Source of the DNA: an uncultured Erysipelotrichaceae bacterium | GTDB lineage: Bacteria; Bacillota_I; Bacilli_A; RF39; UBA660 | Assembly (NCBI GenBank): GCA_902795215.1 | Contig: CADBKG010000002.1 | Span: forward strand, 2,318-66,317 | DNA: 64,000 nt | Direction of reading: 5' to 3' | Shown: positions 6,632-56,638 of the stretch, piece after piece | Layout: each line of letters opens with the position of its first letter | Position numbering within the stretch: the stretch's first letter is position 1 | Translations under genes and position numbers: made by a program | The notes under the pieces: model-generated | Databases searched by the model: none | What the model saw: the letters and a program-made list of their open reading frames with translations, nothing else | What the model was told of the DNA's origin: nothing

Positions 6632-6754
6632 TTATTTGCTTAGTACTTTACGACCTTTTTTTCTTCTAGATTTTAATATATTAGTTTTTTTTCTAGCAAA
6701 AAAGCCATGTTTTTTCTTCATTTTACGATTATTTGGTTGATAAGTTCTCTTCAT
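6632..6754 (-). CDS. rpmH: 50S ribosomal protein L34 (40 aa, not in the ORF track)
   Basis: manual translation [40 protein letters not shown], preceded by SD GGAGG. Confidence 0.95.
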
Positions 6755-6820
6755 GAATATCCCTCCTTCAAAACTGCAACAGTATTATATTATAAAGAAT
6801 AAGCAAAAGTCAAGGCCAAG

Positions 6821-6986
6821 TTATCAACAAATTTTTGAACATTTAATCAACACCATGTTCATAAGTTTTCAACACTGTGTATTTTGCAAATTTGTTGAAA
6901 CTGTTGAAAAGTTTTAAAGGTTAAGGTAGAATAGGGCTTAAAGCGAAATAGTTATCAACATTTCTTGTTTATAACTATGTTGAAAA
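6821..6986. promoter_or_regulatory. oriC, left DnaA-box cluster (variant boxes TTWTCAACA)
   Basis: exact TTWTCAACA at 6821(+), 6866(+), 6902(-), 6952(+), 6978(-); one-mismatch copies at 6844, 6856, 6893, 6966; lies between rpmH and dnaA. Confidence 0.88.
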
Positions 6987-7057
6987 AAATTTTTTTAAAA
7001 TTTAGTCTTTATCTTTTGTTACATTTAAGTTAAAATATTTATACATGGAGTGGGGTG

Positions 7058-8470
7058 ATGGATTTGAATGAAGAAAACACTATCATTTGGGAAAACTTTA
7101 TAAATTTGCTAAAATCAAAAATAGCAATGGTATCCGTCAACTCATGGTTCAAGAATTGTAAAATCTATAAAATAGAAGACTCTAGTGAAAACAATAAACC
7201 TATAAAGATTATTACAATTGAATCAAGCTCAAACTTTATAAGAAATGAAATAAAAAAACGTTATACTGATACTATAGAAGAATTAATGGAAAGTATTCTT
7301 GGGAAGCCTTGTAATATTAAATTTATCATACCTGAGGAAAAAGAAAATACTAATAATACTGAAGTTAAAAATCTAACTACTGAAACGGTAATTCCTGTGG
7401 AAAAGAGTAGTACTTATGAACAAAATTATAGTTTTAGTAGTAATCTGCTTAGTAAGTATTCTTTTGATAACTTTGTAATAGGGGACTCAAATAGACTTGC
7501 CTGTAGTGCATCTAAGTCTGTTTCAGAACAACCTGGTAAGCTTTATAATCCTTTCTTTATTCACGGAAAGAGTGGACTAGGGAAGACTCATTTAATGCAT
7601 GCTATCGGTAATTATATAGAAAATACTAGCAATTTAAAGGTTTTATATGTGACATCAGAACAGTTTATAACGGACTTTACTTCAATAAATATGAAAAAAG
7701 ATGCTGATTATACGGAAGCATTTAAAGCTAAATATAGAAATATAGACGTTCTAATGATCGACGATATACAATTTTTAGGTAATGCTGAGAAAACACAACA
7801 AGAATTCTTTCATACATTTAATAATCTATATGATATGAATAAACAAATAATTATTAGTTCAGATAGAAGTCCAGATGATTTAAAACTATTAGAAGAAAGG
7901 CTTAGAACTAGATTTAGTTGGGGATTAACTGTTAATATATATCCTCCAGATATTGAACTAAAAAAGCGTATTATAAAAAATAAAATGTCGGGACATGCTG
8001 TTGCAAAGCTTGTAGATGAAGAAGTAATTGACTATATAGCAAGTAATAGTGAAAACGATGTAAGACATATAGAAGGGGCCGTTACTAGACTTTATGCTTA
8101 TGCTGCTATAATGGGGCCACATAAAATAGATCTCCAATTTGCAAACGAAGCATTAAAAGACTATATTAAAAACTCTATATATATGGATAGTAATATATCA
8201 AAAATTCAAAAAGCTGTCGCTGATTACTATAAAATAACAGTAGAGGACTTAAAAAGTAAGAAAAGAAGTGCTAATATCAATTATCCAAGACAGGTTGCAA
8301 TATACTTATGCAGGAATTATACAGACGAATCTTTTCCTAAAATAGGACTGGAATTTGGAAACCGCAATCACTCGACAATAATACATGCCTGTGATAAAAT
8401 TAAGGAGGATTTAAAAGAAAATCAAACTTTAAGAGAAATAATTAAACAAATAAAAAATAATATAAGTTGA
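7058..8470 (+). CDS. dnaA: chromosomal replication initiator DnaA
   Basis: YNPFFIHGKSGLGKTHL Walker A, LMIDDIQF, domain IV helix-turn-helix. Confidence 0.98.
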   Translation: MDLNEENTIIWENFINLLKSKIAMVSVNSWFKNCKIYKIEDSSENNKPIKIITIESSSNFIRNEIKKRYTDTIEELMESILGKPCNIKFIIPEEKENTNNTEVKNLTTETVIPVEKSSTYEQNYSFSSNLLSKYSFDNFVIGDSNRLACSASKSVSEQPGKLYNPFFIHGKSGLGKTHLMHAIGNYIENTSNLKVLYVTSEQFITDFTSINMKKDADYTEAFKAKYRNIDVLMIDDIQFLGNAEKTQQEFFHTFNNLYDMNKQIIISSDRSPDDLKLLEERLRTRFSWGLTVNIYPPDIELKKRIIKNKMSGHAVAKLVDEEVIDYIASNSENDVRHIEGAVTRLYAYAAIMGPHKIDLQFANEALKDYIKNSIYMDSNISKIQKAVADYYKITVEDLKSKKRSANINYPRQVAIYLCRNYTDESFPKIGLEFGNRNHSTIIHACDKIKEDLKENQTLREIIKQIKNNIS

Positions 8471-8590
8471 AAACTTGTTAAAACAATATTAGTTTTCAAC
8501 AATTTATAAACAAGCAAAAATCAAGGTATAACCTAATAAATCGACACTTTTCAACAATATAAACAACACTTATTAATATTATTATATATA
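8465..8590. promoter_or_regulatory. oriC, right cluster with putative unwinding element (DnaA boxes plus DnaA-trio-like run)
   Basis: TTTTCAACA at 8493 and 8548, TTATAAACA at 8504, ATATAAACA at 8557, then TTA TTA ATA TTA TTA (8570-8584) and an AT-only tract; dnaA-dnaN spacer as in Bacillus oriC. Confidence 0.8.
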
Positions 8591-8612
8591 AAAAGAAAGA
8601 AGGAATGAAAAA

Positions 8613-9731
8613 ATGAAATTTACGATTGAAAGAAATATTTTACTAGAAAATTTAAATAATGTTATTAAAGCTATTTCTATTAGAAATGTAATACCTATAT
8701 TAAATGGTATTAAATTTGAACTAACTGATGAAGGACTATACTTAACAGCAAGTAATACTGATTTAACTATTAAATCCTTTATTGAAAAGAAAAAGATAAA
8801 AAAGATAGAAAGTAATGGTAGTATTGTAGTACAAAGTAAATATATAAATGAAATTATTAGAAAACTTCCAGATGATACTATAAATATAGAAGTAATAGAT
8901 GGATTAAAACTACTTATAGAATCTAAGAATAGTCAATTTAATTTAAACTGTTTAAAAGTAGAGGATTATCCACAGATAAAATTAGAATATCAAAAAGATC
9001 CTATTATAATTAAAGGTAATGTGTTTAAATCTATGATAAAACAAACAGTTTTTGCTATAAGTAATCAAGAATCTAGACCTTTATTTACAGGAATTAACTT
9101 TAAATTACAAGGCAATATACTAGAAGTTACTGCTACTGATTCATATAGACTTGCAAAAAAGACAGTTGAACTATCCGATTTTGTAAAAGAAGAAATAAAT
9201 ATAACAATACCTGGTAATAATATTAGTGAATTAGATAAAATAATAAATGATGATGAAAATGTAGAAATGCATATATTTAATAGTAAAGCGTTATTTGTAT
9301 ATAAAAATATTAATTTCCAAACAAATTTACTAAGTGGTAATTATCCAAATACTAATAACTTAATACCAGATAATTTTGCAATTATATTTAATGCAAACTA
9401 TAATGATTTATACGATGCAGTTGATAGAGCAGCATTACTTACTCAAAATAAAGACAAAAATATTGTAAAAATGGAAACAAATGGAAATAATTTAACTATT
9501 TCTAGTTATGCTTCAGAAATAGGTAGAACAGAAGAAGTAATTAGTATTAATAAAAATGAAGGAATTGATATTGGTATATCGTTTAGTTCTAAATTTATGT
9601 TAGAAGCACTTAGAACATTAAATGATGATGAAATAGTAGTACTACTTAATAGTGAAACTAAACCAATAGTTATTAAATCAAGTAAAGATGAAACATTAAT
9701 ACAACTTATTTTACCTATAAAAACATATTAG
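8613..9731 (+). CDS. dnaN: DNA polymerase III beta sliding clamp
   Basis: PILNGIKF, ESRPLFTG, ATDSYRLA, C-terminal LILPIKTY. Confidence 0.98.
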   Translation: MKFTIERNILLENLNNVIKAISIRNVIPILNGIKFELTDEGLYLTASNTDLTIKSFIEKKKIKKIESNGSIVVQSKYINEIIRKLPDDTINIEVIDGLKLLIESKNSQFNLNCLKVEDYPQIKLEYQKDPIIIKGNVFKSMIKQTVFAISNQESRPLFTGINFKLQGNILEVTATDSYRLAKKTVELSDFVKEEINITIPGNNISELDKIINDDENVEMHIFNSKALFVYKNINFQTNLLSGNYPNTNNLIPDNFAIIFNANYNDLYDAVDRAALLTQNKDKNIVKMETNGNNLTISSYASEIGRTEEVISINKNEGIDIGISFSSKFMLEALRTLNDDEIVVLLNSETKPIVIKSSKDETLIQLILPIKTY

Positions 9732-9757
9732 AGACTTTCAAAAAAGTCTTTTTTTTT
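9732..9757 (+). terminator. intrinsic terminator after dnaN
   Basis: AGACTTT-loop-AAAGTCT followed by a T-tract. Confidence 0.75.
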
Positions 9758-9784
9758 GTTCAAAAATAACAAATTTTAAACATA

Positions 9785-9814: not shown

Positions 9815-9851
9815 TAAAAGAGTATAAGGGATGGCGAGGGGAGGTGATGGT

Positions 9852-10325
9852 ATGGAAAAATATAGAATTAGTTCAAAAACACTTGCAGTATTACCGATTT
9901 CTAAAAATAGAACAAAGGTATATGAAAACGATGATATTATTATTGTGGACCAAAATGTTCAAAAAATAATAGAAGAAAATTGTTCATATTATGGTAGTTC
10001 ATATAATTTAAGAAAAGAATATACTGAAAAACTAATAGGAGTAACACACAAATCACCAATTATTATTGAAGATGCATCAAATATTATATTTTTCCCTACA
10101 AGTAGTCCTAGATTAAGAGAATGTGGGTGGATATCACTTAATAATCTTGAATCTAATAAGCAAGTAGGGGACTTTAGTCAGATTACTTTCTTTAATAATT
10201 TAAAGGTTAATCTTAATGTTTCTAATAGGATTATTAGTAATCAAATACTTAGATCAACAAGATTAGAATCAATCGCTAGAAAAAGACAGTTAGAATTAAC
10301 AAAGAATTTGAGTAAAAACCTTTAA
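9852..10325 (+). CDS. comK: competence transcription factor ComK family protein
   Basis: IIEENCSYYGSSYNLRKE, THKSPII, IIFFPTSSPR...CGWI pattern of the ComK family; start ATG 9852 after GGAGGTGA. Confidence 0.85.
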   Translation: MEKYRISSKTLAVLPISKNRTKVYENDDIIIVDQNVQKIIEENCSYYGSSYNLRKEYTEKLIGVTHKSPIIIEDASNIIFFPTSSPRLRECGWISLNNLESNKQVGDFSQITFFNNLKVNLNVSNRIISNQILRSTRLESIARKRQLELTKNLSKNL

Positions 10326-16972: not shown

Positions 16973-16978
16973 TAAAAA

Positions 16979-17049
16979 GCACAACGGGCGATTATTGAAA
17001 CTGGTCAGGACTGGAAGGTAGCAGCCATAAAATTTGAACTCGTGTGTGC
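16979..17049 (+). ncRNA. ffs: signal recognition particle RNA (small 4.5S type, about 71 nt)
   Basis: domain IV motif GGTCAGG-ACT-GGAA-GGT-AGCAGCC; closing stem GCAC/GTGC and ACGGG/CTCGT; T-tract after; next to tadA-dnaX as in Bacillus. Confidence 0.9.
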
Positions 17050-17068
17050 TTTTTTGTTGGAGGGAAAT

Positions 17069-26718: not shown

Positions 26719-26750
26719 AATTAACAAACAATTGTGTTATATTACATTTA

Positions 26751-26945
26751 TTAAGCGGTGAAGAAAAGAGTAGATTATAAGAGTTTTAAGAGAGACTTTG
26801 GTTGGTGAAAAAAGTTAAACTCGAGTTTTTGAACATGGTTTTGGAGCTTAAACGTAATTCTTGCGTTAAAAGAAAAAAGAGCATGGGAACATGAATTAAG
26901 GTGGTACCGCGGGTTAATCTCGTCCTTTAGTTCGTGTTTTTTTTA
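26751..26945 (+). promoter_or_regulatory. T-box riboswitch (Met specifier) upstream of metG
   Basis: AGAGAG and GGTTGGTGAAA stem I motifs; specifier ATG at 26835-26837; T-box AATTAAGGTGGTACCGCG at 26894-26911; antiterminator closes with CTCGTCCTT. Confidence 0.9.
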
Positions 26946-56608: not shown

Positions 56609-56638
56609 AATGTTGATAACCAAATAGTTATCAACATT
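56609..56638 (-). terminator. terminator of the lemA operon; both arms are variant DnaA boxes
   Basis: AATGTTGATAAC-caaata-GTTATCAACATT with an A-tract on the left (T-tract on the minus strand). Confidence 0.7.

What the first reader, a model, noticed from the sequence alone, without database searches (positions are those of the whole stretch)
6821..8590. Shifted DnaA-box code (TTWTCAACA) matched by changes in the DnaA recognition helix
Seen: the oriC spacers on both sides of dnaA contain seven exact TTWTCAACA boxes plus several one-mismatch copies, and no canonical TTATCCACA. DnaA domain IV reads GNRNHSTII where E. coli and B. subtilis have GGRDHTTV. Established: this D-H-T segment (E. coli D433/H434/T435) reads DnaA-box bases in the major groove. 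Inference: protein-DNA co-evolution, with D->N (and T->S) switching preference at box position 6 from C to A. Standard oriC finders would under-call this origin.
Basis: partly seen in the sequence, partly recalled or inferred. Interest (0 to 1): 0.7.

Follow-up and report, generated by a model that had tools for sequence, protein, structure and literature searches.

The report
Replication origin with altered DnaA-box code
This is the chromosome replication origin of an uncultured low-GC gut bacterium in which every initiator-binding site has A instead of the usual C at one key position, and the initiator DnaA has two matching changes in its DNA-reading helix; this pairing recurs in several related lineages, so it probably reflects a real shift in what DnaA recognises.

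Summary
The two spacers flanking dnaA hold 7 exact TTWTCAACA and 6 one-mismatch copies, against 0.03 and 0.7 expected by chance. There is no TTATCCACA. DnaA reads GNRNHSTII where E. coli has GGRDHTTV (D433N, T435S). GC skew flips here, and the gene order is rnpA-rpmH|dnaA-dnaN.

A at box position 6 is not unusual by itself. A Mollicutes consensus TTWTC(C/A)ACA is published, and low-GC genomes with canonical RDHT DnaA carry about 40% A6 boxes. What is unusual is the near-total loss of C6.

At GC ≤0.30, 19 RNHS loci have 204 A6 and 4 C6. RDHS loci have 172/186 and RDHT loci 259/325. Asn with Thr (RNHT) keeps C6, and Ser with Asp (RDHS) keeps C6. Only the pair goes with A6-only origins.

This holds in at least four DnaA lineages, one at 53% GC. 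It also holds in three within-family D/N contrasts. At orthologous boxes, RDHS relatives have near-invariant C where RNHS genomes have A.

There are exceptions. Within this clade the direction of change is probably N→D. I rate it a new variant of a known kind, of moderate-to-good interest.

The parts
6632..6754 (-). rpmH (ribosomal protein L34), left border of the origin region
   Evidence: Pfam Ribosomal_L34, E 2e-13. Same position in all relatives.
6784..6813 (-). Promoter-like site for rpmH (TTGACT-18-TATAAT)
   Evidence: 11 of 12 consensus match. The motif is conserved in the family alignment as AAAAGTCAAG...TATTATATTATA. This is a consensus match only.
6821..6986 (.). Left DnaA-box cluster (oriC upstream part). 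It holds 10 boxes, all with A at position 6: 6821+ TTATCAACA, 6833+ TTTTGAACA, 6844+ TAATCAACA, 6856- TTATGAACA, 6866+ TTTTCAACA, 6893- GTTTCAACA, 6902- TTTTCAACA, 6952+ TTATCAACA, 6966- TTATAAACA, 6978- TTTTCAACA
   Evidence: The positions are orthologous to boxes in 19 relatives.
7058..8470 (+). dnaA, 470 aa from ATG 7058 (the mechanical ORF starts at GTG 7055)
   Evidence: Pfam DnaA_N, Bac_DnaA (E 1e-64) and Bac_DnaA_C (E 2e-31). The nearest homologue, P0001, is 470 aa and 99% identical.
8195..8401 (+). DnaA domain IV helix-turn-helix (Bac_DnaA_C, residues 380-448)
   Evidence: Ungapped alignment to 1J1V and 8BTG.
8366..8368 (+). Codon AAT = Asn438, equivalent to E. coli Asp433
   Evidence: RDHS relatives have GAT or GAC here.
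8372..8374 (+). Codon TCG = Ser440, equivalent to E. coli Thr435
   Evidence: Ser is found throughout this family.
8476..8565 (.). Right DnaA-box cluster (oriC downstream part): 8493+ TTTTCAACA, 8504+ TTATAAACA and 8548+ TTTTCAACA, directly followed by 8557+ ATATAAACA. A degenerate minus-strand site lies at 8476-8484
   Evidence: All are orthologous to conserved boxes in relatives, where RDHS genomes mostly have C6 (alignment columns 54, 71, 116, 162, 171).
8566..8598 (+). AT-only stretch with 3-nt periodicity (ACAC TTATTAATATTATTATATATAAAAAG). Candidate DnaA-trio/unwinding element
   Evidence: Sequence and conserved placement after the last box pair in relatives. The assignment is by analogy with the B. 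subtilis dnaA-dnaN spacer and was not tested. The trio register is ambiguous.
8613..9731 (+). dnaN (beta clamp), right border of the origin region
   Evidence: Pfam DNA_pol3_beta, all three domains.

Best explanation
The region is a bipartite, Bacillus-type chromosomal origin: DnaA-box clusters lie on both sides of dnaA and an AT-rich element lies in the dnaA-dnaN spacer. It belongs to an uncultured low-GC bacterium related to Bacilli/Mollicutes. Its DnaA carries Asn and Ser where canonical DnaAs have Asp433 and Thr435, at the N-terminus of the recognition helix. Together these two residues most likely move the preferred base at box position 6 from C (with A tolerated) to A (with G the next most frequent). 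The high-affinity box in this lineage would then be TTWTCAACA.

Shown: the boxes, the substitutions, their position in the helix-turn-helix, and the replicated co-variation between RNHS and A6-only origins.

Inferred: residue 433 reads base 6. Asp would accept a hydrogen bond from the amino group of C or A. Asn would pair with adenine N6/N7 and would explain the purine bias. The Thr435 methyl would help exclude the purine.

Within this clade Asn appears ancestral. The RDHS relatives look like lineages that reverted to Asp and are re-acquiring C6 boxes.
For: Origin identity. GC-skew flip, gene order and Pfam assignments, and 13 boxes against 0.67 expected.

Contact set. D433 and T435 are in the base-specific contact set (PMC2533591, PMC7561715). 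Helix 434-451 reads TnCACA (PMC5742627). The alignment to 1J1V is ungapped.

Co-variation across classes, counting strict TTWTNNACA boxes in dnaA flanks. RNHS, 22 loci: A 216, C 6, G 14, T 7, with 17 loci having zero C6. RDHS, 81 loci: C 459, A 298, with 1 zero-C6 locus. RDHT, 67 loci: C 382, A 308, T 87, with 2 zero-C6 loci. The result is the same at GC <=0.30. Boxes per locus are similar in all three classes, about 10-12.

By DnaA lineage, the A/(A+C) fraction is 0.97, 0.99, 1.0 and 0.8 for RNHS, and 0.9 for a KNHA lineage. The median of 25 other lineages is 0.43. Mann-Whitney p = 0.001. One RNHS lineage has 53% GC (L137/L142/L147).

Within-family contrasts. 100 A / 3 C against 126 A / 128 C. 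104 A / 1 C against 3 A / 15 C. 36 A / 0 C against 23 A / 6 C.

Orthologous boxes. Five sites are C in 9-13 of 13-14 RDHS relatives and A in 4-6 of the 6 RNHS genomes.

No other domain IV column tracks the D/N state.

T is as rare as C in RNHS boxes although these genomes are about 75% A+T. This argues for positive selection of A rather than drift.

In E. coli, DMS exposes rather than protects the G paired with C6 (PMC5043019). That is consistent with this base pair being read from the C side.
Against: All the evidence is correlative, and no binding was measured.

I could not obtain the structure paper (Fujikawa 2003). The residue-433-to-base-6 contact therefore rests on helix geometry, the DMS data and my own recollection.

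A-only or nearly A-only origins exist with Asp433: L254 9 A / 0 C, L001 8 A / 0 C / 4 G, L217 11 A / 1 C.

Some RNHS origins keep one or two C6 boxes (L288, L290, L130, L142, L147).

RNHS DnaAs of a Fibrobacteria, an Oscillospiraceae and a Thermoleophilaceae MAG sit next to C6-type candidate boxes.

For Planctomycetes, the largest RNHS group, no box cluster could be found near dnaA.

The number of independent lineages is small (4-6), and the tree is neighbour-joining only.
Confidence: 0.6

Rival explanations
1. Relaxed specificity plus A+T mutation pressure. Position 6 is no longer read in these DnaAs, and C has simply decayed to A in very AT-rich genomes. The Asn/Ser changes would be neutral passengers.
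For: Most RNHS genomes are 22-28% GC. A6 boxes are common in all low-GC origins, including canonical RDHT ones.
Against: RDHS and RDHT origins at the same GC (<=0.30) keep 52-56% C among their A+C boxes. In RNHS boxes T is as rare as C (7 against 6) while A is 216, yet drift would give A and T about equally. An RNHS lineage at 53% GC still uses TTTTCAACA. The flip occurs at orthologous, otherwise conserved boxes.
Confidence: 0.12
2. The origin is built only of weak boxes. DnaA still prefers C6, the A6 boxes are the usual low-affinity sites filled cooperatively, and these lineages have lost their strong anchor boxes. The Asn/Ser changes would be unrelated or would only tune affinity.
For: In E. 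coli, deviation from TTATNCACA lowers affinity and low-affinity sites are functional (PMC5043019, PMC4451416). A few Asp433 genomes also run A-only origins (L254, L001, L217).
Against: Zero-C6 origins are found in 17 of 22 RNHS loci but in only 3 of 148 Asp433 loci. The boxes that are most strictly C6 in RDHS relatives are exactly the ones that are A6 here. The number of boxes per origin is not raised to compensate, at about 11 in every class.
Confidence: 0.2
3. Phylogenetic coincidence. RNHS and A6-only origins are both inherited from one or two ancestors, so the association has no causal content.
For: The two largest RNHS groups and the window's family belong to one superfamily of related Bacilli-like MAGs. 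Parsimony puts Asn at its root.
Against: Within that superfamily at least three N->D changes are each accompanied by the appearance of C6 boxes. Unrelated Clostridia lineages show the same pairing: L090, L137/142/147 and L021, at 36-45% identity to the window.
Confidence: 0.08

Closest known systems
Mollicutes DnaA-box consensus 5'-TT(A/T)TC(C/A)ACA-3' (M. pulmonis, S. citri, M. capricolum, M. genitalium; A. laidlawii TT(A/T)T(C/T)(C/A)ACA), as summarised in PMC3322544
   Same: It has the same 9-mer with A allowed at position 6. TTTTCAACA and TTATCAACA are explicitly listed there. The boxes flank dnaA, and the organisms are related low-GC Bacilli/Tenericutes.
   Different: The published consensus is C or A, whereas here and in other RNHS genomes C is essentially absent. 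I found no link to DnaA residues 433/435 in the searched literature. I could not check which residues the cultured Mollicutes carry.
Bacillus subtilis / Clostridioides difficile bipartite oriC (rnpA-rpmH-dnaA-dnaN, boxes on both sides of dnaA, unwinding in the dnaA-dnaN spacer; PMC7561715)
   Same: Gene order, two box clusters, and an AT-rich stretch after the last boxes downstream of dnaA.
   Different: Those organisms have RDHT DnaA and TTATCCACA-type strong boxes. [quoted passage not shown]
Epsilonproteobacterial DnaA boxes (core TTCAC, T at position 5, protection of G4), with variation in helix 5 of domain IV (PMC5043019)
   Same: It is a precedent for lineage-specific box changes that were tentatively attributed to substitutions at positions 435, 438 and 439 of the recognition helix.
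   Different: A different box position (5 rather than 6), different residues, and a different phylum. That proposal is also not resolved mechanistically.
Other non-canonical DnaA boxes: Thermotoga maritima 12-mer and Mycobacterium tuberculosis YWRTCCACA (cited in PMC7561715, PMC5043019)
   Same: They show that DnaA and box specificity can diverge together.
   Different: Those variants keep C at position 6, which is the position altered here.

Membership tests
DnaA initiator protein | DnaA_N, AAA+ Bac_DnaA and C-terminal Bac_DnaA_C helix-turn-helix domains | tested here: met
   Pfam E 1e-6, 1e-64 and 2e-31. Aligns to 8BTG, 1J1V and 3PVP.
DnaA initiator protein | Canonical base-contact residues R399, P423, D433, H434, T435, H439 (E. 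coli numbering) | tested here: not met
   R399, P423, H434 and H439 are present. D433 is replaced by N and T435 by S. It is still a DnaA, but not one of canonical specificity type.
Chromosomal oriC of the bipartite Firmicute type | GC-skew sign change at the locus | tested here: met
   Skew is negative up to about 6 kb and positive from about 8 kb.
Chromosomal oriC of the bipartite Firmicute type | Clusters of DnaA boxes in both the rpmH-dnaA and dnaA-dnaN spacers | tested here: met
   10 and 3-4 boxes, against 0.67 expected in total. The architecture is conserved in 19 relatives.
Chromosomal oriC of the bipartite Firmicute type | DnaA-trios and an AT-rich unwinding element next to the last box downstream of dnaA | tested here: inconclusive
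   An AT-only, 3-nt periodic stretch lies at 8566-8598, but the register and strand of the trios cannot be fixed. Unwinding is not testable here.
Canonical DnaA box (TTATCCACA / TTWTNCACA) | C at position 6 | tested here: not met
   None of the 13 boxes has C6, and there is no TTATCCACA in the spacers.
Mollicutes-type DnaA box TT(A/T)TC(C/A)ACA (PMC3322544) | 9-mer TTWTCMACA repeated in the spacers flanking dnaA | tested here: met
   7 exact matches, all of the A variant.
Mollicutes-type DnaA box TT(A/T)TC(C/A)ACA (PMC3322544) | [quoted passage not shown] | tested here: inconclusive
   The nearest genomes are MAGs labelled Bacilli, Tenericutes, Mollicutes or Erysipelotrichaceae. The window reads through with the standard code, and it holds no rRNA gene for placement.
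RNHS/A6 specificity class (proposed here) | Asn at 433 and Ser (or Ala) at 435, together with an origin whose boxes lack C6 | tested here: met
   The window has 11-13 A6 and 0 C6 boxes. The same holds for 17 of 22 RNHS loci.
RNHS/A6 specificity class (proposed here) | Higher affinity of the protein for A6 than for C6 boxes | not testable with these tools
   Needs EMSA, SPR or ITC.

The most novel reading that the evidence does not exclude
A two-residue motif at the tip of the DnaA recognition helix (Asp433/Thr435 versus Asn433/Ser435) may act as a simple, reversible specificity switch for the most invariant base of the DnaA box (C6 versus A6). It would have flipped several times within gut Bacilli and Clostridia, with each origin's whole set of boxes following. 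A second state (Asn433/Thr435) may favour G at position 5. This would be the first readable 'recognition code' for DnaA. It would also provide natural orthogonal initiator/origin pairs.
Probability: 0.45. Interest if true: 0.75.

Novelty: new variant of a known kind. Interest (0 to 1): 0.58.

Why it matters
C at position 6 is treated as the fixed core of the DnaA box, and origin finders and annotation pipelines search for TTATCCACA. If Asn433/Ser435 DnaAs really prefer TTWTCAACA, three things follow.

1. Origins of a sizeable group of uncultured gut Bacilli/Clostridia are under-annotated. Only 2 of the 13 boxes here are within one mismatch of the canonical box.

2. DnaA specificity could be predicted from two residues, which gives a testable rule for protein-DNA co-evolution in an essential system.

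3. The RDHS relatives, with mixed A6/C6 origins, would be snapshots of an origin being rewritten after a change in its initiator.

The statement in the literature that the contact residues are conserved in all Firmicutes also needs revising. RDHS is common, including in Streptococcus and Sporosarcina.

Tried and rejected
1. Structure papers. I tried to read Fujikawa et al. 2003 (PMC153737 and its DOI); it is not held. Tsodikov & Biswas 2011 has no PMC id in the reference list I consulted, so I did not look it up. The atom-level contacts of D433 and T435 could therefore not be cited.

2. Singleton or assembly error. The first 14 relatives all had Asp, so I first suspected the Asn was a singleton or an error. 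I rejected this after 17 clusters at 78-99% identity, and further groups, showed Asn.

3. D->N alone as the switch. Rejected, because RNHT lineages keep C6.

4. T->S alone as the relaxing change. Rejected, because RDHT low-GC controls have as many A6 boxes as RDHS, and high-GC RDHS lineages keep pure TTATCCACA.

5. Residue 439 (H/Y/F/S) as a co-determinant. No consistent effect.

6. De novo 9-mer search around dnaA in Planctomycetes, Solirubrobacterales and Peregrinibacteria with RNH[ST]. No convincing box cluster appeared, apart from TGTGCACA-type words in Solirubrobacterales, which are palindromic and so counted twice. These phyla could not be used.

7. DnaA-trio assignment in the dnaA-dnaN spacer. 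The register is ambiguous in AT-only sequence.

8. Literature searches for TTATCAACA/TTTTCAACA with DnaA, and for coevolution of DnaA box and domain IV. These found only the Mollicutes consensus and the epsilonproteobacterial discussion.

9. The first version of the de novo script timed out and was rewritten.
Full report
WHAT IS IN THE WINDOW

The window comes from a 27% GC genome. GC skew is negative up to about 6 kb and positive from about 8 kb. The genes around the switch are mnmE, jag, yidC, rnpA and rpmH on the minus strand, then dnaA, dnaN, comK, recF and gyrB on the plus strand. This is the classical Firmicute origin neighbourhood.

The rpmH-dnaA spacer holds five exact TTWTCAACA and five one-mismatch copies. 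The dnaA-dnaN spacer holds two exact copies and one one-mismatch copy. Shuffling the spacers gives 0.025 exact copies, and 0.67 copies with up to one mismatch, against 7 and 13 observed. Every one of the 13 has A at position 6. TTATCCACA is absent from both spacers.

DnaA is best read from ATG 7058, giving 470 aa. It has the three DnaA Pfam domains and aligns without gaps to E. coli domain IV (1J1V) and B. subtilis DnaA (8BTG). Of the six residues reported to make base-specific contacts (R399, P423, D433, H434, T435, H439; PMC2533591, PMC7561715), four are kept. D433 is Asn (N438, AAT 8366-8368) and T435 is Ser (S440, TCG 8372-8374).

IS THE ASN REAL, AND HOW WIDE IS IT?

The 14 closest species-level genomes (71-77% identical DnaA, labelled Bacilli, Tenericutes or Erysipelotrichaceae MAGs) all read GNRDHST. 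That at first made the Asn look like a singleton.

A search of the large protein collection changed this. Seventeen clusters at 78-99% identity share GNRNHSTIIH. A second group at 70-74% does too. In a sister clade at about 60% identity, RNHS and RDHS proteins are interleaved. One protein has RSHS.

On a neighbour-joining tree, Fitch parsimony puts Asn at the root of this whole group, with at least three changes to Asp. The window therefore probably keeps the ancestral state of its clade, and the RDHS relatives are derived.

A pattern scan of one genome per species showed RNH[ST] in many phyla: Planctomycetes, Solirubrobacterales, Peregrinibacteria, Methylococcaceae and a few Firmicutes. Only 14 species combine the Firmicute-type PKIG context with RNHS. 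RDHS with that context is common and includes Streptococcus, Sporosarcina, Salinicoccus, Rubrobacter and Peptoniphilus.

For 284 loci with a full dnaA and both flanks, I counted strict TTWTNNACA 9-mers in 470 nt around the start of dnaA and 200 nt after its stop. I used loci with at least five boxes and grouped them by residues 432-435.

- RNHS, 22 loci: position 6 is A 216, G 14, T 7, C 6, and 17 loci have no C6 at all.
- RDHS, 81 loci: C 459, A 298, T 42, G 23, and one locus has no C6.
- RDHT, 67 loci from a scan biased to low-GC codons: C 382, A 308, T 87, G 11, and two loci have no C6.
- RNHT, 4 loci: C 28, A 12.

Restricting to GC <=0.30 gives the same picture: 204 A / 4 C for RNHS, 172 / 186 for RDHS and 259 / 325 for RDHT. 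Boxes per locus are about 10-12 in every class.

An unbiased 9-mer enumeration returns TTATCAACA or TTTTCAACA as the top word in the RNHS Firmicute loci, and TTATCCACA or TTTTCCACA in most others.

I clustered DnaAs at 62% identity to approximate lineages. The A/(A+C) fraction is 0.97, 0.99, 1.0 and 0.8 for the four RNHS lineages, and 0.9 for a KNHA lineage. The median for 25 other lineage-by-class groups is 0.43. Mann-Whitney p = 0.001. One RNHS lineage has 53% GC (L137/L142/L147) and still uses four TTTTCAACA per origin.

WITHIN-FAMILY CONTRASTS AND ORTHOLOGOUS BOXES

Three sister comparisons point the same way.

- In the window's family, RNHS members have 100 A / 3 C and RDHS members 126 A / 128 C.
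- In the GGRNHSTIIS family, the figures are 104 A / 1 C against 3 A / 15 C for its RDHS neighbours.
- In the 60%-identity sister clade, they are 36 A / 0 C against 23 A / 6 C.

The origin architecture is conserved well enough to align 20 origins of the window's family base by base. At 13 conserved box sites, the six RNHS genomes have A at position 6 almost everywhere. The 14 RDHS genomes have nearly invariant C at five sites (13/13, 13/14, 12/14, 11/13, 9/13) and mixed C/A at the rest. The rest of each box is unchanged.

No other column of domain IV tracks the Asp/Asn state, and residue 439 has no consistent effect.

WHAT IS ALREADY KNOWN

A at position 6 is not new in itself. A review of phytoplasma genomes cites a published Mollicutes consensus TT(A/T)TC(C/A)ACA. 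It gives A. laidlawii boxes as TT(A/T)T(C/T)(C/A)ACA and lists TTTTCAACA and TTATCAACA in phytoplasmas (PMC3322544). My RDHT control shows that about 40% of the boxes in low-GC origins with a fully canonical DnaA are A6.

What I did not find in the searchable literature is an origin class without C6, or a link between base 6 and residues 433/435. The nearest precedent is the suggestion that helix-5 substitutions explain the T5-type boxes of Epsilonproteobacteria (PMC5043019).

MECHANISM

Shown: residues 433-435 lie at the N-terminus of the helix (434-451) that enters the major groove and reads 5'-TnCACA-3' (PMC5742627). T435M abolishes box binding (same source). In E. coli, the G paired with C6 is exposed to DMS rather than protected (PMC5043019).

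Inferred: the C6:G pair is read from the cytosine side by Asp433, which would accept a hydrogen bond from an amino group. Both C and A carry one in the major groove, which fits the canonical order C > A > T >> G. Asn can both accept from N6 and donate to N7 of adenine, and can donate to N7 of guanine. That fits A >> G > T and C in RNHS origins.

Asn with Thr435 keeps C6 and shows G at position 5 in 21 of 44 boxes, against 5% in RDHT. This suggests that the Thr methyl decides which neighbouring base the Asn can reach. These contacts are my inference and need a structure.

ALTERNATIVES

- Drift under A+T pressure is contradicted by the GC-matched controls, by the rarity of T6, and by the 53% GC lineage.
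- An origin made only of weak boxes is contradicted by the flip at precisely the boxes that are most strictly C6 in relatives, and by the unchanged box number.
- Pure shared ancestry is contradicted by repeated D/N changes, each accompanied by a change in the boxes, and by unrelated Clostridia lineages showing the same pairing.

None of these alternatives is excluded outright, because no binding was measured.

EXCEPTIONS

- Three Asp433 genomes have A-only or nearly A-only origins (L254, L001, L217).
- Five RNHS origins keep one or two C6 boxes.
- RNHS DnaAs of a Fibrobacteria MAG (L081: three C6 and two A6), an Oscillospiraceae MAG (L107) and a Thermoleophilaceae MAG (L091: TGTGCACA words) do not fit, although their box sets are small and uncertain.
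- Planctomycetes could not be assessed.

VERDICT

The co-variation is real, replicated and specific to the Asn+Ser pair. However, the A6 box as such is known, neither substitution alone does it, the polarity in this clade is probably Asn to Asp, and the biochemical claim is untested. I rate it a new variant of a known kind, with interest 0.58.

Noticed in passing
window 56611-56636: Two perfect TTATCAACA boxes lie head to head (TGTTGATAAC caaata GTTATCAACA) in the spacer between the convergent ung-like and LemA-like genes. This could be an extra-origin DnaA-binding site, or simply an AT-rich terminator hairpin.
   Followed up: partly
window 9757-9782 and 9831-10325: A ComK-family gene sits between dnaN and recF, and this is conserved in all relatives fetched. 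Two box-like 9-mers (TTTTGAACA on the minus strand, TTTTAAACA on the plus strand) lie just upstream of it.
   Followed up: partly
L045, L135, L104, L098, L039 (and possibly L042, L109, L047 and others): DnaAs with Asn433 but Thr435 (RNHT) keep C at box position 6 but have G at position 5 in about half of their boxes (TTATGCACA), against 5% in RDHT origins. This is seen in Methylococcaceae, Abiotrophia and Erysipelotrichaceae MAGs. TGTGCACA words appear in Solirubrobacterales. It may be a second residue/base co-variation.
   Followed up: partly
L151-L267 (e.g. L160 Streptococcus agalactiae, L177 Sporosarcina, L159 Salinicoccus, L157 Rubrobacteraceae): Thr435->Ser (RDHS) is common in cultured Firmicutes and Actinobacteria that still use TTATCCACA. 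The published statement that the DnaA contact residues are conserved in all Firmicutes is therefore too strong.
   Followed up: yes
window 8372-8400: The Ser440 codon is TCG in almost all family members despite the 27% GC. TCGACA-17 nt-TAAAAT, with a TG before the second hexamer, forms a promoter-like site inside the 3' end of dnaA. It is possibly a dnaN promoter that constrains the codon.
   Followed up: no
P0058 (73% identical to the window's DnaA): One relative has Ser at position 433 (GNRSHSTIIH), a third state of the same residue. Its origin could not be fetched.
   Followed up: no
window, whole length: TTWTCAACA occurs 26 times against 4.5 expected. Outside oriC it is almost always on the minus strand and inside genes, so TGTTGAWAA lies on the leading strand. 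This is probably a codon or skew effect rather than DnaA binding.
   Followed up: partly
window 26749-26930 and 16973-17058: A T-box leader and the small SRP RNA are the only Rfam matches. A TTATCAACA (minus strand, 16942) lies 23 nt upstream of the SRP RNA.
   Followed up: no
L001, L009, L010, L013, L137, L217, L273: Several public MAG records that carry these Bacilli- or Clostridia-type dnaA loci are labelled Muribaculaceae or Escherichia coli. These are evidently wrong taxon labels or mis-binned contigs.
   Followed up: no
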